From: a virus | IMG/VR virus record: IMGVR_UViG_3300043411_001170 | Coordinates: 32,001-96,000 of that record | DNA: 64,000 bases | Strand: one strand, 5' to 3' | Shown: positions 13,774 through 26,598 of the stretch, in pieces | Layout of the letters: each line of letters starts with the position of its first letter | Position numbering within the stretch: position 1 is the first letter of the stretch | Translations under genes and position numbers: made by a program | Notes under the pieces: generated by a model | What the model was told of the DNA's origin: nothing | Database searches by the model: none | The model's input: the letters and a program-made list of their open reading frames with translations, nothing else

Positions 13774-14286
13774 ATGTTATCAAAAATAGCTAAAGCGATT
13801 GTTCCAATTATCAGACAACAGACTCAATTTACATGTAGTGCCGTATCTATATCTGCCTGTTTGCAATTTTTTGACAAACCATATAACGAAGATGATGTAA
13901 ATAGAGTTTTAAAGTGCGTACCTAAAAAGGGAGCTTCTTGGGAAGAGATTCTTCTATGCTTACAGTATTTCGGCATGAAGGGTGAATTAATAGTACCATG
14001 TAATTTTAAGATATTAAAAGAATGGACGGATAATGGAAATCCTGCTATTATAGGATGGAATCCACAAGGAAGACCTTGGTCACATGCTTCTGTAGTCTGT
14101 GACGTATCTAAGAGTAAAGGAATATTAATCATGGACCCAAACTCTGTTAATACAGATAAGACATTAAAATGGTGGTCATTCGATGATTTTTCAGACAGAT
14201 GGTACGAAAAGAGCGGTGATTTTGTAGTTAGAAGACCTGCATTAAAAGTATCTAAAGAAGTTGGAGTAAATGGTGAACTTCTGTAA
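13774..14286 (+). CDS. C39-family cysteine peptidase (stand-alone)
   Basis: RQQTQFTCSAVS (Q...C), WSHASVV (H) and ILIMDP (D) match the C39 catalytic pattern. Confidence 0.8.
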   Translation: MLSKIAKAIVPIIRQQTQFTCSAVSISACLQFFDKPYNEDDVNRVLKCVPKKGASWEEILLCLQYFGMKGELIVPCNFKILKEWTDNGNPAIIGWNPQGRPWSHASVVCDVSKSKGILIMDPNSVNTDKTLKWWSFDDFSDRWYEKSGDFVVRRPALKVSKEVGVNGELL

Positions 14287-14351: not shown

Positions 14352-15275
14352 TCAGTCTAAGAAATCTGATTTATCAAAATCTCCCAAAGTTTTAATTTTC
14401 TCTGACCAGTACCATGCAGATGGAATACTTTCTTTTATTTCAGCCGAAGAACTACCTAGTAGTTTCATTTTAATCAACGTATGAATAATACGTTTATCAC
14501 TTTCTTTCATATCTTCGGTCTGTTCCTCAAGAAGCTCTAAAAATTTTATGATAGCTTCCTTGTGTTCATAATCTTTTACAGGATTATGAAATGAACTACT
14601 TGATATGACATCATCAATACTAAAACATTCTAAAGTTCTATGTTTTCTATGATATTTAGAAACATAGGTGGCGTATTTCACACACCAGTATCCAAAAGCT
14701 TCTGGTGTAATACTCCCATATTTCAGAATGGCCGACTTTAATAAGTCTCTATCAAGACATTTAATGATAAAGTCGTTGATAAAATCATCAACGTCAGACG
14801 GTGACATTTCATTAAAATTCTTTAATCCTCTCTTAAATACTACACGTCTTACTTCATTAAGATAATCTTCCGTAATTTTTGAAAAGAAAACCTTTGTAAA
14901 AGTATCCCTATTTACACCTGATAAATAACCATAGAGATTAGAATCTTTTGGGAGACTCTCCAAAAGAGAGGGATTAGTTCCTAAAATATCTTGGGCTTTT
15001 ACTCCCATACCTATAATAATAGAAGAAGCAGATAATTTAGCGTTGTTTTCTTTTATAATATAACCTTCTTTTTTCATAAACTTGAGAAGATTACTTATAA
15101 ATTTTGATTTATTTTCGGGGGGAGTAAGTCTTTTCTCCACCAAAAGTAAATCAAATACAACTTCAGAGTTAGAGATAATTTTTGAAGGAGATGGATGTTT
15201 AAATCCGTACCAATTAAAGAAACTGAACGTGAATCCAATAGCTTCCATACCTGTTTCTACAATAAGTGGATTCAT
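14352..15275 (-). CDS. Divergent sigma-70/ECF-like factor with N-terminal extension
   Basis: Region-2-like EVRRVVFK...SDVDDFINDFIIK...AFGYWCVKYA; region-4-like IIHTLIKMKLLGSSSAEIKE. Confidence 0.5.
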   Translation of the reverse strand: MNPLIVETGMEAIGFTFSFFNWYGFKHPSPSKIISNSEVVFDLLLVEKRLTPPENKSKFISNLLKFMKKEGYIIKENNAKLSASSIIIGMGVKAQDILGTNPSLLESLPKDSNLYGYLSGVNRDTFTKVFFSKITEDYLNEVRRVVFKRGLKNFNEMSPSDVDDFINDFIIKCLDRDLLKSAILKYGSITPEAFGYWCVKYATYVSKYHRKHRTLECFSIDDVISSSSFHNPVKDYEHKEAIIKFLELLEEQTEDMKESDKRIIHTLIKMKLLGSSSAEIKESIPSAWYWSEKIKTLGDFDKSDFLD

Positions 15276-15353
15276 ATATCTCCCTCAATCCTGATTTAAG
15301 GTTCTTCTTACATACAAGAGAAGGAATCAATTCCTTCGCCCTATGTGACTAGA

Positions 15354-15381
15354 ACTTTAATAGTTTTATTGAGGAAGTCAA
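15354..15381 (-). promoter_or_regulatory. Candidate sigma70-type promoter for the 14352-15275 gene
   Basis: Minus strand TTGACT-N16-TAAAGT. Confidence 0.35.
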
Positions 15382-15505
15382 GGGTTTACAAAATAAATCG
15401 TAAGACCTCAATAAACACATATACTTAAATATACACTTAAAAAGAATATGGATATAAAATCCATAAAAATATATGTATTATGACATTCCCTAATAGGAGG
15501 AAGGT

Positions 15506-15578
15506 AAGACTTATCAAGTCAGATCTTGATAAATACTATTTCTAATAGTTATCAAGAAAATTTGAAATGATAAGTCTT
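15506..15578. repeat. Nested inverted repeats with four alternating TTATCA boxes (candidate origin/iterons)
   Basis: AAGACTTATCA 15506-15516 / TGATAAGTCTT 15568-15578; TCTTGATAA 15524-15532 / TTATCAAGA 15549-15557. Confidence 0.6.
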
Positions 15579-15959
15579 TTCAATAATTATTAATTTTTCA
15601 AAGAAAACTCACAAGAAAAAGGAGGGAAAAGGAATAAAGAATAGGGAGAGAGTATACTGACGATACTTATTCTTACTCTTCTTCTATAGTAACAAGAAAA
15701 ACTTTTGGAAGGAAAGATTCATAGACAAGATCAGAATGAACGAGATGATGTTATACATAGAGATCAACAACCACATGATGAGAAAGTTCAGAAACAAGAT
15801 TAGATTAATCTACTAGATGATTTTCTTTTTTTGGTGTTTTAAGAGATTGTATATTGTAAAGAAAGATATCTATATTCAATAATATATTATTCAAATTATC
15901 TATATAGTAAGAATATATCTTATATCCCTTTAATATATTCTTATAGACAGTTCGAATCC

Positions 15960-16560
15960 TCGTATAGAGGCCAATATCTTTCAAAGGCTATGGGGGTTAA
16001 ATTTACCAGATCTAACCTAAGTCTCCAATCAAGACCGCCAACACCTTCAGGCTCTAGTAATCTGCTGCCGTTTCAAGGCAGCCTGGATCGATTCACTAGA
16101 TACATTTACTTCTCAGCTTATGACCACTCCTCATCCAGAAATCTTTCCCTTATAAACTTAAACAATTTTATTTAACTTTATAGTGAGTCTGATTTCTTTA
16201 GAGTACGCACCAGTTCAAGTGGCTAGCCTTTAAAGGCGGGTACGCCACTCCCGCAAGATTTTCATCTCTACCTCCCATCATCTGCTTTGATTCTCACAGT
16301 TCATGTCTACTATTTTTCAAGTAATAGACACTCCTCCGTTATTGAGAGAACCAACATAATGGCTTTCTTTCAGAAATAATTTGTTTTACGATGATTACTT
16401 CTAAAATCTGCCATAGTGCCTTTAAGGGTCAGCACTACGATGATCCGCCAACGCAAGGTACACCCTAAAATCAATTAATTTAATTAGTTATCTTATTTTA
16501 GTTTCTTGTCAGGAAACTTATTTTGATTAACTGTTAAAATTTAATCAATAATAGGTAAGG
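15960..16560 (-). ncRNA. Putative large structured non-coding RNA (~500-600 nt), family unassigned
   Basis: At least 9 helices packed in a GC-enriched island within a non-coding gap; several contain G.U pairs on the minus strand that would be A.C mismatches on plus; ends approximate. Confidence 0.65.
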
Positions 16561-16666
16561 ACTTTGTCGATATGTAGTTGTAAAAGAGCAGGCAAGCAAA
16601 ACAGATCGCTTGCTAGACAACACATCATACCAGAATTATTTAAGAGTTATCAACTTTGGTGAAAAA

Positions 16667-17182
16667 ATGTCAGAGAAAAACAAATTCTTTATAGATTTCG
16701 ATGGGAAGCCAGACGATTATCGCACAAGGTCAGATAGAAATAGGGGTACGGGTTTAGGAGAATCAGATCGTGTAGGTACAGTAGTAGATCCTGATATAAA
16801 GTATCAGTATTATTTTTTGAAGGGAACGGCAAATTATGTATTTGTAGAACAAATAGCATTTGCTTGTTATGGTATTTTGATAAATGCGTTACAGCCTTTA
16901 TTTCCTTTATCGAATGAAGCAGCACCATCACCTTTTGTGTTAATTACTCCAACAATTGCCCCATTACCCGGTAATATATCAAAGTTACGCTATCCCCTTA
17001 CAGTAAGATGGGATATGTGGCAATTTTCAGCGGTTCCAGTCATAGGGATGGAAGAAATAAATCCTAACAATCCTATAAATACGCAGGATATACAATACAA
17101 TTTTTTAAGATACTTTAGAAAACTGTATTATTACGTATATAACTCATTAATAGAGAATGGATTTCTTCCACCGTTAAATTAA
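16667..17182 (+). CDS. Hypothetical protein
   Basis: ORF 16610..17182; ATG at 16667 with GGTG RBS preferred. Confidence 0.7.
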   Translation: MSEKNKFFIDFDGKPDDYRTRSDRNRGTGLGESDRVGTVVDPDIKYQYYFLKGTANYVFVEQIAFACYGILINALQPLFPLSNEAAPSPFVLITPTIAPLPGNISKLRYPLTVRWDMWQFSAVPVIGMEEINPNNPINTQDIQYNFLRYFRKLYYYVYNSLIENGFLPPLN

Positions 17183-19032: not shown

Positions 19033-19257
19033 ATGGCAAAGAACGGATTGGAATTTCAAGCAACTATTTTGGAAGCATTTCCCAATGCATCATTTAAAGT
19101 AGAATTTATGCATGGGGAAACTAAAGCTCAAGCATTGTGTACTATTTCTGGAAAAATTCGGCTCCATCAGATTAAGATTATTCCAGGTGATAAAGTATTG
19201 ATCGATATTAGTGAATATGATCTGACAAAAGGACGGATCATTAGACGCTTAGTTTGA
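19033..19257 (+). CDS. infA: Translation initiation factor IF-1
   Basis: EAFPNASFKV...ISGKIRLHQIKIIPGDKVLIDISEYDLTKGRIIRR is a canonical IF-1 pattern. Confidence 0.95.
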   Translation: MAKNGLEFQATILEAFPNASFKVEFMHGETKAQALCTISGKIRLHQIKIIPGDKVLIDISEYDLTKGRIIRRLV

Positions 19258-19701: not shown

Positions 19702-19719
19702 AGTTTGACAGAGGTTTTT

Positions 19720-21330
19720 ATGTTTGAGCAAGAAGTTTTGGAATTAGTAACAAAAAACGAACAACTAGGTTCACTCTATGTGACAGTTGATTATATCATT
19801 AAAGGGATGGAACATAAGAATCTATCTACAGATGCTATCTTAGACATTCTTATGGCTCTTATTTCAAAGAAAGAGATTCATGTAGACTCTAGCTTTGGTA
19901 CTCCTTATAGAGTGTATAAAACAGAAACTTATATTAAAGAGAAATTTTGTTCTGATATTTTATTGAAAAGAAAATCTGAAATTAGTTCTGCATCTTATGA
20001 TTCCATCAGCATGTCTGATTTTAAAACTTTAATGCAACAGAGAGTAGATGATGAGGATGGTTTGCTAAGTTCTATGGAACTTACTGCATTACAGAAGCAA
20101 GCTATTGTAAATTCTTTGGTACATCCTGTGTCTATTATTACGGGTTATCCAGGTACAGGTAAAACGACGTGTCTTCGTGTACTGACAAATATATTGAAAA
20201 AGAATAATATAAATTTTTTGTTGCTAGCTCCTACAGGAATTGCTGCTAAAAGATTGTCTAATTTAACAGGGGCAAAAGCAAGTACTGTACATAGAGCATT
20301 TCAAGCTCAAGGAGAAATAGAGGACAGGGATTTTAGTTATGTCGGTATACAAAAAACAGTTCAAGAATCTGTTACTGATCAAGATTCTACATGGACGTGG
20401 GGTATTGAAGGAAGTCATTATCCAGCGGATATAGTAATCATAGATGAATCTTCTATGCTGGATACGAATTTATTATATCGTATTCTGATGTACACTAAAC
20501 CTCTATGTAGGGTTGTTTTGATAGGTGATCAAGAACAACTACCCTCTGTTGGTCCAGGGTCGGTATTAAAAGACTTAATAGCCTCAAATGCTTTTCCTGT
20601 GACAAGGTTTGAAGAGATATTTAGACAGGATGGTACAAGTCCGATTATTGTATCTGCTCATGATATAGTTAAGGGAAATTTTCCATCATCTGTTGATGGT
20701 GATTTTAAGTTCATAGAAATAAATGATGAGCAGGAAATATTAGACAAGGTTTTGGAAACTGTCTGTAACTTTTATAAAAATCAACTTAATTTCCAGGTGT
20801 TTTCTCCTAAACATGCTGGGTTATTAGGTGTTACGAACTTAAATTCTGAAATACGTGAGAAAATAAATAGTAAAAGTAATAAGAAGAAAGAATTTCAGAT
20901 TGATAAGTTTTCTTATGTGAGAGAAGGTGATCGTGTAATGGTGATTAAAAATCATTACAAAAATAATTTATTTAACGGTGATTTTGGTAAGGTCCATTTA
21001 ATAAATTTTTCTAAGAAAAGTATAGAAGTCAAGATCTTTGGCGATATTCCTAGAATATTCTCCTATAAAATAGAAGAGTTTTCTAAATATTTTAGATTAT
21101 GTTATGCTTGTACGGTACATAAGGCACAAGGATTGGAGATGGATACAATTATATTTCCAATCGTAAGAAGTCATGGCTTTATGTTACAGCGTAATCTTTT
21201 ATATACGGCTGTTACCAGAGCAAAGAAAAATGTGATATTGATAGGTCAGAGGGCAGCACTTCTTCAGGCTGTGCAAAATAACAGAGAAGATAAAAGAAAC
21301 ACCTCTTTACGAGAAAGACTTGGATCATAA
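19720..21330 (+). CDS. recD: RecD/RecD2-like SF1B DNA helicase
   Basis: Walker A ITGYPGTGKT, APTGIAAKRL, IIDESSM, IGDQEQLPSVGPG, TVHKAQG, LLYTAVTRAK. Confidence 0.9.
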   Translation: MFEQEVLELVTKNEQLGSLYVTVDYIIKGMEHKNLSTDAILDILMALISKKEIHVDSSFGTPYRVYKTETYIKEKFCSDILLKRKSEISSASYDSISMSDFKTLMQQRVDDEDGLLSSMELTALQKQAIVNSLVHPVSIITGYPGTGKTTCLRVLTNILKKNNINFLLLAPTGIAAKRLSNLTGAKASTVHRAFQAQGEIEDRDFSYVGIQKTVQESVTDQDSTWTWGIEGSHYPADIVIIDESSMLDTNLLYRILMYTKPLCRVVLIGDQEQLPSVGPGSVLKDLIASNAFPVTRFEEIFRQDGTSPIIVSAHDIVKGNFPSSVDGDFKFIEINDEQEILDKVLETVCNFYKNQLNFQVFSPKHAGLLGVTNLNSEIREKINSKSNKKKEFQIDKFSYVREGDRVMVIKNHYKNNLFNGDFGKVHLINFSKKSIEVKIFGDIPRIFSYKIEEFSKYFRLCYACTVHKAQGLEMDTIIFPIVRSHGFMLQRNLLYTAVTRAKKNVILIGQRAALLQAVQNNREDKRNTSLRERLGS

Positions 21331-25392: not shown

Positions 25393-26598
25393 ATGATCAA
25401 AGTAAGAGTAAAGAATTTTCAATCTTTGGTTGATTGTGAGATGTTAATTGACGGATTCACAACATTAACAGGTAAAAATAACACAGGAAAATCAGCACTT
25501 ATACGTGCTATTTATTCTATGTTTACGAATCCTACTTATCTTCCTATAGCTAATGATATTACAAAACCTGTAGAAGTTGAGCTTACAGGTGATGGTTTTC
25601 ATATATTATGGAAGAAAAGTAAAACTGATAATATGTACGTTATTGATGGTGTAACTTACGAAAAAGTTGATAGAGATTTACCAGAGGCACTGAATAAAAT
25701 AGGTATTAACAGCATTAATATTAATGGTAAGACAATATTTCCACAGTTTGCTATGCAACTTACAGGGCAATTATTTTTAACCAATATGCCGGGTTCTTAT
25801 TTATCTGAGGCAGTGGCTGATACTGATTCTGTTCAGTTACTGACAGATGCGTATAAGTTATCAGAAAAATCCAGAAAAAACGCGACTTCTGAGTTAAAAA
25901 TAAGAAAGAAAGATCTAGTAGATACTAATAAAACATTAGCAAGCTACGACTCATTTTTTAGTATAAAAGACGAATTTGAAATATTAACGCAAGATAAGAG
26001 TGCTATTGATTTATTGACAGGCAAAATCAAAATTTTAAAAGATATATATACTAAGATTACTACTTGTAAGAACACACTTAGTAAATTAGTAAATGTTAAC
26101 AGTGTTATTTCTGATATGAAAGAACTAAAGTTTGATGATATCAATATACTTTTAGAAAAAAGAATAACAGTTACTGACTTGCTTAAGAATTATAGTATAA
26201 GAAAGAAGGAACTGAATTCCATAGAGGCATTTGATTCTAAGGTTGAATCCAATAATATCGAAAATCTTATTTTATGTGTTGGAGATATAAAGAAAGTATT
26301 TAATTCATATTTTGAGTTGTTATCCTTGCGATCAAAAATAGAAAATCAGAGGAAGGTATTAGACGAAATTCCAGATGTAGAAGATCCTGTTTCAGTGGAT
26401 GAAGTTAATAAATTAAAACAGCTATTTAATTTATTAACTTCTTTAAATTCTCTTATTATACAAAGAAGATTATTATCTAATGAAATATGTGATACGACGA
26501 ACAGTGTTGACAGATTGGTGACTGAACATAGTCAGATAAAAAAAGACATCGCAGTATTTTTGAAGCAGCAGGGAAAATGTCCTGTATGTTCTGTGTGA
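25393..26598 (+). CDS. SbcC/Rad50-like ATPase, N-terminal half (Walker A, coiled coil, zinc hook)
   Basis: VRVKNFQS, LTGKNNTGKSALIRAI, Q-loop FAMQ; ends GKCPVCSV; no Walker B. Confidence 0.85.
   Translation: MIKVRVKNFQSLVDCEMLIDGFTTLTGKNNTGKSALIRAIYSMFTNPTYLPIANDITKPVEVELTGDGFHILWKKSKTDNMYVIDGVTYEKVDRDLPEALNKIGINSININGKTIFPQFAMQLTGQLFLTNMPGSYLSEAVADTDSVQLLTDAYKLSEKSRKNATSELKIRKKDLVDTNKTLASYDSFFSIKDEFEILTQDKSAIDLLTGKIKILKDIYTKITTCKNTLSKLVNVNSVISDMKELKFDDINILLEKRITVTDLLKNYSIRKKELNSIEAFDSKVESNNIENLILCVGDIKKVFNSYFELLSLRSKIENQRKVLDEIPDVEDPVSVDEVNKLKQLFNLLTSLNSLIIQRRLLSNEICDTTNSVDRLVTEHSQIKKDIAVFLKQQGKCPVCSV

What the first reader, a model, noticed from the sequence alone, without database searches (positions are those of the whole stretch)
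15960..16560. Large, densely structured minus-strand non-coding RNA in a jumbo phage
Helices seen (plus-strand coordinates): 16411-16419/16432-16440 (9 bp, 2 G.U); 16368-16380/16394-16406 (13 bp, 2 G.U); 16287-16295/16346-16354 enclosing 16304-16312/16322-16330 (1 G.U each); 16218-16223/16244-16249 enclosing GCCU-UUAA-AGGC; 16137-16143/16191-16197 enclosing 16151-16164/16169-16182; 16053-16062/16090-16100 enclosing GCUGCC/GGCAGC; 16021-16035; 15995-16017. The wobbles are G.U on the minus strand and A.C mismatches on plus, which points to selection on a minus-strand RNA. An 8-nt motif (GUUGGCGG on minus) occurs twice, at 16035-16042 and 16445-16452. A possible promoter TTGCTT-N17-TACATA lies on minus near 16570-16598. 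Known: large phage-associated ncRNAs of this size class exist (ROOL, GOLLD) with unresolved functions; I cannot assign this one. It sits between a candidate origin/sigma-like gene and the replisome operon, and the phage also encodes a cold-shock RNA-binding protein.
Basis: partly seen in the sequence, partly recalled or inferred. Interest (0 to 1): 0.85.

Follow-up and report, generated by a model that had tools for sequence, protein, structure and literature searches.

The report
Unproven non-coding RNA beside phage origin
A 500-base gene-free, GC-enriched stretch in the main control region of a very large phage may be copied into an RNA, but it folds only modestly better than chance and no close relatives could be compared, so it stays a candidate.

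Summary
Window 15960-16470 lies in the longest ORF-free gap (15276-16609, true gene start 16667) of a 137.7-kb huge-phage record. It is non-coding under four codes. GC is 0.40 against about 0.30 around it, and G exceeds C on the minus strand. It matches no Rfam family, tRNA or tmRNA.

"Densely structured" is only weakly supported:
- The minus strand folds better than shuffles (z -3.5 to -4.3, 0 of 100), but 20 control windows of the same genome average z -1.24 (minimum -3.12).
- Stems of 8 bp or more are no more frequent than in shuffles (12 against 11.3).
- The ensemble is not significantly better defined (about 9 of 60 shuffles do as well).

No homologue was found in 47-48 related IMG/VR records by BLAST or three covariance models. 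The DNA of the three closest relatives could not be reached, so covariation is untested.

A complete AT-rich relative has iterons and the cumulative GC-skew minimum in the syntenic gap. That supports an origin/control region.

Best reading (0.4): a lineage-restricted, leftward, hairpin-rich non-coding transcript of this region. A new ROOL/GOLLD-like ornate RNA remains possible (about 0.12).

The parts
15960..16470 (-). GC-enriched (0.40), G>C, ORF-free, hairpin-rich block: the candidate non-coding RNA core
16445..16452 (-). GUUGGCGG, copy 1 (as GCGUUGGCGG)
   Evidence: only two copies in the 137.7-kb record
16035..16042 (-). GUUGGCGG, copy 2 (as GUGUUGGCGG)
16329..16336 (-). GAGGAGUG, copy 1
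   Evidence: only two copies in the record; not significant on its own (33 of 100 shuffles)
16125..16132 (-). GAGGAGUG, copy 2
16226..16237 (.). Palindrome GCCUUUAAAGGC (small hairpin with a self-complementary loop); related CCCUUAAAGGC at 16418-16428 and GCCUUUGAAAG at 15980-15990 compete for pairing
16368..16406 (-). 13-bp hairpin (2 G.U), pair probability 0.97
16287..16354 (-). Long three-segment hairpin (9+4+10 bp), pair probability 0.83-0.99
16137..16197 (-). AU-rich extended hairpin, pair probability 0.87-0.97
16064..16082 (-). GCUGCC/GGCAGC hairpin with a UUGAAAC loop, pair probability 1.0
16624..16653 (-). Best sigma-70-like promoter of the region (TTGATA-18-TG-TATGAT, 10 of 12); possible start of a leftward transcript
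   Evidence: a consensus match only
16592..16613 (-). 8-bp GC-rich hairpin followed by a U-rich tract (terminator-like, or a 5' hairpin of the leftward transcript)
16571..16599 (-).
15908..15943 (.). Perfect 11-bp AT-rich inverted repeat. It holds the 15-mer ATATATCTTATATCC (15913-15927), unique in this record and otherwise seen only in the syntenic gap of relative G004
15506..15578 (.). Imperfect palindrome with 35-nt arms and three TTATCAAG; the strongest strand-symmetric fold signal; origin- or operator-like
15320..15381 (-). Promoter-like TTGACT-16-TAAAGT (15381-15354) and a hairpin (15337-15320) just upstream of the 307-aa gene, so that gene probably has its own promoter

Best explanation
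The stretch is a true non-coding block inside the origin/control region of a huge phage, between a short leftward gene pair and the rightward replication operon. Most likely it is transcribed leftward (minus strand) as a lineage-restricted untranslated RNA of about 0.5-0.65 kb. That RNA would be a chain of independent hairpins rather than one ornate fold.

Proposed mechanism (inferred, not shown). A promoter near 16653-16624 drives transcription over a C-rich template and yields a G-rich RNA. The RNA runs into the AT-rich palindromic elements at 15943-15506. There the transcript, or the act of transcription, would help to open, prime or regulate the origin, in the manner of ColE1 RNA II or the phage T4 origin transcripts. 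It could also interfere with the divergent replisome-operon promoter, which it overlaps.

Shown: non-coding status; composition and strand bias; modest excess of fold stability; duplicated motifs; origin-like character of the syntenic gap in a relative.
Inferred: the transcript itself, its ends, and any role at the origin.
For: 1. It lies in the longest ORF-free gap of the record: 1334 nt, the next being 663 nt, among 15 gaps of 200 nt or more.
2. No frame is open. Minus-strand frames carry 12-15 stops per 170 codons, with 12.2 expected. No long ORF appears under code 4 or TAG=Q.
3. GC is 0.38-0.41 against 0.25-0.33 on either side. GC skew on the plus strand is -0.2 to -0.37. Base counts on the plus strand are C 127 and G 80. 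Plus-strand genes of this genome carry G>C on their coding strand.
4. Minus-strand MFE z is -3.5 to -4.3 (0 of 100 shuffles), against -1.9 to -2.2 on the plus strand.
5. There is an excess of internal direct repeats: 21 repeated 7-mers against 10.2 expected, P 0.012. GUUGGCGG and GAGGAGUG each occur twice, and only here in 137.7 kb.
6. The best promoter-like site of the 2-kb region faces leftward, just upstream.
7. Long GC-rich intergenic regions in AT-rich genomes are a recognised enrichment criterion for structured ncRNAs (PMC8723152 and PMC8632094; only the abstracts in the search listing were seen).
8. Origin context. In the complete AT-rich relative G004 (316,221 bp; helicase, p243, p270, p219 and RecA collinear) the syntenic 1409-nt ORF-free gap holds about six iterons, three copies of a roughly 50-nt repeat and the shared palindromic 15-mer. 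It also contains the cumulative GC-skew minimum (315,998) and the point of gene divergence. Its minus strand is likewise G-skewed.
Against: 1. The fold statistics are modest against this genome's own background: control z averages -1.24, sd 1.36, minimum -3.12.
2. Stem counts equal chance. Well-definedness is not significant. Local windows are weak.
3. No homologue was found in 47 related records by BLAST, nor in 48 related records by three covariance models that together cover 15945-16468. The only marginal hits were 13.2 and 9.7 bits.
4. The syntenic gap of G004 shows no sequence similarity to the block and no excess folding (z -1.5 and -0.4). G022 has no comparable gap near its helicase.
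5. In this record the cumulative GC-skew minimum is elsewhere. The record is a 31% fragment, and only two genes to the left run leftward.
6. No terminator-like site follows the block; the nearest on the minus strand are at 16613-16592 and 15337-15320.
7. Transcription is not shown. The two RNA-library contigs on 16272-16422 and 16461-16609 come from a run that was chosen for holding this stretch, and they carry no strand information.
Confidence: 0.4

Rival explanations
1. Not an RNA gene. The block is spacer or regulatory DNA of the origin/promoter region. Its hairpins are what chance gives in 500 nt when G.U pairs are allowed, and its G/C skew and GC content are by-products of transcription, mutation bias or history.
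For: Stem counts equal shuffles. Ensemble measures are not significant. 3 of 20 control windows reach z of -2.84 or lower. No conservation was detected in any of 48 related records. The k-mer maxima are ordinary. The self-alignment of putative units is not significant (P 0.11 to 0.59).
Against: The MFE beats 100 of 100 shuffles on the minus strand for three different cuts. The GC rise of about 10 points over neighbouring non-coding DNA is hard to explain for neutral spacer in a phage. Two 8-mers are duplicated only here in 137.7 kb. Phage genomes rarely keep 500 nt of functionless DNA (general knowledge).
Confidence: 0.3
2. A new class of large, globally folded ('ornate') phage RNA comparable to ROOL or GOLLD. 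It might self-associate through the palindromic UUUAAA loop at 16226-16237, or bind a partner at the two GUUGGCGG sites.
For: Size about 500 nt, phage-borne, GC-rich island, no coding capacity, and a better fold on one strand. The duplicated motifs lie at the two ends. There is a self-complementary hairpin loop and two related copies able to pair at long range. ROOL, GOLLD and OLE form homo-oligomers (PMC12286853; only the start of the abstract in the listing was seen).
Against: There is no Rfam similarity even at E up to 10. There are no tRNA genes in the record, whereas ROOL and GOLLD are often near tRNAs (PMC5737381, passages read). Long-range helices have probabilities of 0.1-0.6 and alternate with one another. 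No GNRA or UNCG tetraloops cap the predicted hairpins (read). Well-definedness is not significant. No relatives were found, so there is no covariation evidence.
Confidence: 0.12
3. The block is read on the plus strand as a long 5' leader of the P0001/replisome operon, from promoters in the AT-rich segment 15850-15950.
For: Promoter-like sites exist on the plus strand at 15854-15883 and 16523-16552. The operon to the right is on the plus strand. Plus frame 0 has few stops, 4 against 8.9 expected. RNA-library contigs lie on 16272-16609 with unknown strand.
Against: The plus strand folds less well (z about -2, within genome background). The plus strand is C- and pyrimidine-rich, the opposite of the coding or sense strands of this genome.
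Confidence: 0.1
4. A decayed gene remnant, or a gene hidden by an alternative genetic code.
For: GC content and G>C on the minus strand resemble coding DNA of this genome. With TAA read as sense, plus-strand frames of 140 and 157 codons open.
Against: Minus-strand frames carry as many stops as random sequence. Code 4 and TAG=Q open nothing beyond 110 codons. The rest of the genome reads in code 11, with ORFs up to 2,686 aa. The 61-aa ORF peptide finds only two low-complexity proteins among 1.84 billion representatives. The three ORF peptides tested (61, 59 and 34 aa) are not on record as called genes.
Confidence: 0.03
5. A divergent member of a described RNA family (tmRNA, RNase P RNA, group I or II intron, ROOL, GOLLD, RAGATH-19).
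For: There is a full-length but weak alignment to RAGATH-19 at 16427-16557 on the minus strand (20.5 bits, E 0.99).
Against: There are 0 matches at gathering score in 64 kb. The best hit is 65 bits below its family's threshold and at the E-value expected by chance. ARAGORN finds nothing.
Confidence: 0.03

Closest known systems
ROOL RNA (Rfam RF03087)
   Same: Roughly 500-600 nt, non-coding, found in phages and prophages, function unknown.
   Different: No cmscan match even at E up to 10. No tRNA genes nearby. [quoted passage not shown] No family of relatives is available.
GOLLD RNA (Rfam RF01998)
   Same: Large phage-associated non-coding RNA.
   Different: GOLLD is larger (about 800 nt, recalled). 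No cmscan match. No tRNA neighbourhood.
Origin transcripts: ColE1 RNA II, phage T4 ori(uvsY)/ori(34) R-loop transcripts, T7 primary-origin transcripts (recalled from the literature, not read here)
   Same: An untranslated, G-rich transcript of some hundred nucleotides would be read from a promoter toward an AT-rich, repeat-bearing region next to replication genes. The syntenic gap in a relative has iterons and the GC-skew minimum.
   Different: No transcript, R-loop, RNase H site or origin has been shown here. There is no sequence similarity. In relative G004 the order of repeats and GC-richer non-coding blocks differs.
RAGATH-19 RNA (Rfam RF03096)
   Same: A weak end-to-end alignment of four hairpins over 16427-16557 on the minus strand.
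   Different: 20.5 bits against a gathering score of 85.6, E 0.99. It covers the AT-rich upstream part, not the GC-rich block.
GC-rich intergenic-region candidates of the Breaker-laboratory pipelines (DIMPL)
   Same: A long intergenic region with a GC-rich island in an AT-rich genome.
   Different: Those candidates are accepted only after comparative support, and none could be obtained here.

Membership tests
ROOL (RF03087) | Match to the Rfam covariance model at or above the gathering score | tested here: not met
   0 matches at gathering score in the window. ROOL is not among the matches at E up to 10.
ROOL / GOLLD | Frequent neighbourhood of tRNA genes in phage or prophage DNA | tested here: not met
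   ARAGORN finds 0 tRNA or tmRNA genes in the window and in the 137.7-kb record. The context feature is taken from PMC5737381.
GOLLD (RF01998) | Match to the Rfam covariance model | tested here: not met
tmRNA | tRNA-like domain plus tag reading frame | tested here: not met
   ARAGORN and Rfam
RNase P RNA, group I and group II introns | Match to the Rfam models; for introns, interruption of a host gene | tested here: not met
   No matches. The block lies between genes, not within one.
RAGATH-19 (RF03096) | Score at or above the gathering score (85.6 bits) | tested here: not met
   20.5 bits, E 0.99
Structured ncRNA in general | Compensatory base changes across homologues | not testable with these tools
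More distant kin have no homologue.
Structured ncRNA in general | Fold more stable and better defined than composition-matched controls | tested here: inconclusive
   z -3.5 to -4.3 against shuffles, but the genome background is -1.24 +/- 1.36. Stem counts are at chance. Ensemble measures are reached by 8-10 of 60 shuffles.
Origin-priming or origin-activating transcript (ColE1 RNA II or T4 ori type) | Promoter, then a transcript that enters an AT-rich unwinding or initiator-binding region | tested here: inconclusive
   A promoter-like site at 16653-16624 and AT-rich palindromes downstream. The syntenic gap in G004 is origin-like. The origin and the transcript are not shown in this phage, and its record-wide skew minimum is elsewhere.
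Origin-priming or origin-activating transcript | Persistent RNA-DNA hybrid or processed primer end | not testable with these tools
   This needs an experiment.

The most novel reading that the evidence does not exclude
The block encodes a new class of roughly 500-nt phage RNA, restricted to a rare AT-rich lineage of huge phages, that folds as one unit. It would work either as an RNA-only assembly, pairing through its self-complementary UUUAAA loop and presenting two GUUGGCGG sites, or as the structured primer or activator RNA of a huge-phage replication origin.
Probability: 0.12. Interest if true: 0.75.

Novelty: new variant of a known kind. Interest (0 to 1): 0.35.

Why it matters
Large structured RNAs without a known function are rare, and several of them (ROOL, GOLLD) are phage-associated. 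Replication origins of huge phages are essentially unmapped. A real 500-nt RNA beside an origin-like region would give a testable handle on how such genomes start replication or control their early genes. As it stands the value is that of a lead. The region is clearly non-coding and compositionally odd, but the structural claim that made it look exciting does not survive this genome's own controls.

Tried and rejected
SEARCHES FOR DNA OR LOCI OF RELATIVES
- blastn (distant mode) of 15900-16620 against 50,697 GenBank phages: no match. tblastn of P0001 there: none. TerL there: only 44% and 28%.
- Single-protein scans of IMG/VR with the 190-aa, 307-aa and helicase proteins: none.
- The P0001 alignment A1 in IMG/VR, JGI metagenomes and GTDB genomes: none.
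- The TerL alignment in metagenome and GTDB contigs: best 50% and 43% identity.

DNA PATTERN SCANS OF IMG/VR
- Three-motif pattern: 0 hits.
- Two-motif pattern: 118 or more hits, all in loci of GC 0.40-0.72, and 0 matched the RNA by nhmmer.

SEQUENCING RUNS
- 10 runs hold words of the stretch. Four were laid.
- The pieces are short (151-243 nt) and identical or 97% alike, apart from one X4 piece scored under 90% alike. They come from runs chosen for holding this stretch, so they show neither transcription nor strand.
- Most differences were not shown, and none of those listed falls within the block. The parts of the stretch without cover say nothing.
- Run X3 held 0.32 of the words, yet no piece of it was laid on the block.

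INTERNAL STRUCTURE AND MOTIFS
- Internal tandem duplication into units of about 200 nt: self-alignments not significant.
- CsrB-like GGA sponge: about 10 GGA by my reading against about 10 expected from composition (hand estimate, no call).
- T-box-like and tRNA-like resemblances seen by eye: no Rfam or ARAGORN support.
- Search for a shared promoter motif in intergenic regions: nothing clear.

NEIGHBOURING PROTEINS AND SPURIOUS ORFS
- Spurious-ORF trick to reach relatives: the ORF peptides are not on record. phmmer of the 61-aa ORF gave two low-complexity hits.
- AlphaFold model of P0001: mean pLDDT 36.9, too poor for a fold search.
- Six-frame Pfam scan of the block: the tool rejected translations that contain stops.

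Full report
WHAT IS THERE

The window is bases 32001-96000 of a 137,687-bp IMG/VR virus record that CheckV rates 31% complete. Its large terminase has 866 relatives at E <= 1e-20, many on contigs of 250-619 kb, so this is a huge-phage lineage.

The finding lies in the longest ORF-free gap of the record. No ORF of 100 aa or more covers 15276-16609; the next longest gap is 663 nt, out of 15 gaps of 200 nt or more. The real start of the right-hand gene P0001 is the ATG at 16667.

On the left lie a 307-aa gene and a 235-aa gene on the minus strand. On the right, the plus strand carries, in order:
- P0001, then genes of 67, 209 and 311 aa;
- IF-1 (68.7 bits) and a RecD-like helicase;
- further on, RecA, a sliding-clamp-like protein and a clamp loader.

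IS IT NON-CODING?

Yes.
- All minus-strand frames of 15960-16470 carry 12-15 stops per 170 codons, with 12.2 expected.
- Code 4 and TAG=Q open nothing longer than 110 codons.
- Only TAA=Q opens plus-strand frames of 140 and 157 codons. That is what reading TAA as sense does in any AT-rich sequence, and the rest of the genome reads well in code 11.
- The 61-aa ORF peptide has no real relatives among 1.84 billion representatives.

COMPOSITION

GC is 0.38-0.41 in 15900-16400, against 0.18-0.33 in the rest of the gap and 0.345 for the record. C exceeds G on the plus strand: skew is -0.2 to -0.37, and the base counts are C 127 and G 80.

THE HELICES

Most local hairpins have pair probabilities of 0.83-1.0:
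- 16368-16406;
- 16287-16354;
- 16137-16197;
- 16064-16082;
- 16020-16036.

Two of the listed helices, 16218-23/16244-49 and the outer 16053-62/16090-100, have only 0.2-0.5. All long-range pairings have 0.1-0.6 and compete with one another. In particular, GCCUUUG(AA) at 15980-90 can pair with either of two UAAAGGC elements.

IS IT MORE THAN CHANCE?

The results are mixed.

For:
- The minus strand folds better than 100 of 100 dinucleotide shuffles for three cuts (z -3.67, -3.50, -4.27). The plus strand reaches only z -1.9 to -2.2 (the tool's own 20-shuffle runs gave -3.89 and -2.35).

Against:
- 20 control strand-windows of 470 nt, taken at even steps through the same record, average z -1.24 (sd 1.36, minimum -3.12; 3 of 20 at or below -2.84). 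The block is therefore about 2 sd from this genome's own background.
- Contiguous stems of 7, 8 or 9 bp and more, with G.U allowed, are as frequent as in shuffles: 35 against 29.8, 12 against 11.25, and 5 against 4.4.
- Ensemble diversity, entropy and the share of well-defined pairs are reached by 10, 9 and 8 of 60 shuffles.
- 120-nt windows inside the block have z -0.2 to -2.8. The strongest signals of the gap are strand-symmetric AT-rich palindromes outside the block.

MOTIFS

- GUUGGCGG occurs twice, and only here in the whole record, on the minus strand.
- GAGGAGUG does the same, but is not significant by itself.
- Repeated 7-mers are in excess: 21 against 10.2 expected, P 0.012.
- Overall k-mer maxima are ordinary.
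- A split into homologous units of about 200 nt is not significant.

KNOWN FAMILIES

- Rfam 15 gives no match at gathering score in the window.
- At E up to 10 it gives only chance-level hits. The best is RAGATH-19 at 20.5 bits against a gathering score of 85.6, E 0.99, over the AT-rich part at 16427-16557.
- ARAGORN finds no tRNA or tmRNA in the window or the record.

RELATIVES

P0001 has three relatives at about 70% identity. The helicase has three, at 75, 73 and 60%. TerL has three, at 86, 86 and 75%. All are in Logan, ENA or JGI records that the available tools could not fetch. Scans with alignments found none of them in IMG/VR, the JGI contigs or the GTDB genomes.

The next tier of kin has 38-50% TerL identity.
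- In 47 such IMG/VR records, 7 of them at least 90% complete, BLAST with the RNA gave only matches of 14-30 nt. All 12 that I inspected lie in open frames of GC-rich phages.
- Three covariance models that together cover 15945-16468 found only the phage's own copy (245, 229 and 193 bits). In 48 kin records the best other hits were 13.2 and 9.7 bits.

THE ORIGIN CONTEXT

The complete AT-rich relative G004 (316,221 bp, GC 0.31) has first and last 20 nt that are identical. It is collinear with the window for the helicase, p243, p270, p219 and RecA, and it has a weak p209-like match at its very start.

The ORF-free 1409 nt at its end is therefore the syntenic gap. This gap holds:
- three copies of a repeat of about 50 nt;
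- about six iterons;
- the palindromic 15-mer ATATATCTTATATCC, twice. This 15-mer is otherwise found once in our record, at 15913-15927;
- the cumulative GC-skew minimum of the genome (315,998) and the point where gene orientation diverges.

The G004 gap has no similarity to the GC-rich block and no excess folding (z -1.5 and -0.4). Its minus strand is, however, also G-skewed. G022 has no comparable gap next to its helicase. In our own, incomplete record the skew minimum lies elsewhere.

EXPRESSION

Ten public runs from 7 studies (freshwater, wastewater, pond) hold words of the stretch, among them two metatranscriptomes. Of the four runs laid, the RNA run gave two 151-nt contigs, at 16272-16422 and 16461-16609, identical to the window. 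These runs were chosen for holding this stretch and contigs carry no strand, so this is not evidence of transcription.

READING

The secure part is this: a non-coding, compositionally distinct, strand-biased block inside an origin/control region.

The most likely reading (0.4) is a lineage-restricted leftward untranslated transcript, rich in independent hairpins. It would start near the best promoter-like site (16653-16624, followed by a hairpin at 16613-16592) and run toward the AT-rich palindromes. It would act in cis on origin opening or priming, or on the overlapping divergent promoter. The comparison with ColE1 RNA II and the T4 origin transcripts is recalled from the literature, not tested. 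The 307-aa gene seems to have its own promoter (15381-15354), which speaks against a simple 5' leader.

Rivals:
- chance hairpins in regulatory spacer DNA (0.3);
- a new ornate RNA of the ROOL/GOLLD kind (0.12);
- a plus-strand leader (0.1);
- a gene remnant or recoded gene (0.03);
- a divergent member of a known family (0.03).

VERDICT

It is not a member of any described RNA family, but it is also not shown to be a large structured RNA. The decisive data are the three relatives' contigs and strand-specific reads. Both exist publicly but could not be reached here.

Noticed in passing
window 15506-15578: An imperfect palindrome with 35-nt arms carries three TTATCAAG. It gives the strongest, strand-symmetric fold signal of the gap (z about -4.5 on both strands) and looks like an operator or initiator site.
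   Followed up: partly
window 15913-15927; G004 316040-316053 and 316172-316185: The palindromic 15-mer ATATATCTTATATCC is unique in this record. It recurs, twice, only in the syntenic origin-like gap of a relative with 47% TerL identity.
   Followed up: partly
G004 (IMG/VR record of 316,221 bp) 314813-316221: An origin-like gap: about six iterons (GATAAGATTTATTGTCAAAGAA-like), three copies of a repeat of about 50 nt, the cumulative GC-skew minimum at 315,998, and identical first and last 20 nt of the contig (circular assembly).
   Followed up: partly
window 15610-15693: In wastewater run X3 this roughly 80-nt purine-rich piece lies at the ends of several contigs (5.3, 6.1 and 19.7 kb) at 2-4 times their depth, with unlike flanks. 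It is either a repeat or a recombination junction in a relative that is about 93% identical.
   Followed up: no
window 19033-19257: The phage encodes a translation initiation factor IF-1 homologue (Pfam eIF-1a, 68.7 bits) inside the replication operon.
   Followed up: partly
window 13774-14286: A C39-family peptidase-like gene (31.6 bits) is conserved at 40-44% identity in relatives G004 and G022.
   Followed up: no
window 14352-15275 (minus strand): The 307-aa neighbour has no Pfam or PHROG family. The protein-language-model search puts viral Sigma70_r2 and ECF-sigma/HTH clusters nearest among named ones (0.92 and 0.91). This is a lead only.
   Followed up: partly
record 25476-26138 (6.5-5.9 kb before the start of the window): The second-longest ORF-free gap of the record (663 nt, GC 0.357). 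It was not examined.
   Followed up: no
window 19705-21330: The RecD-like helicase has only three phage relatives (60-75% identity). The next hits are longer, 770-820-aa proteins at about 50% identity, the few labelled ones annotated as exodeoxyribonuclease V alpha subunit. This hints at a gene taken up from bacteria by this sub-lineage.
   Followed up: no
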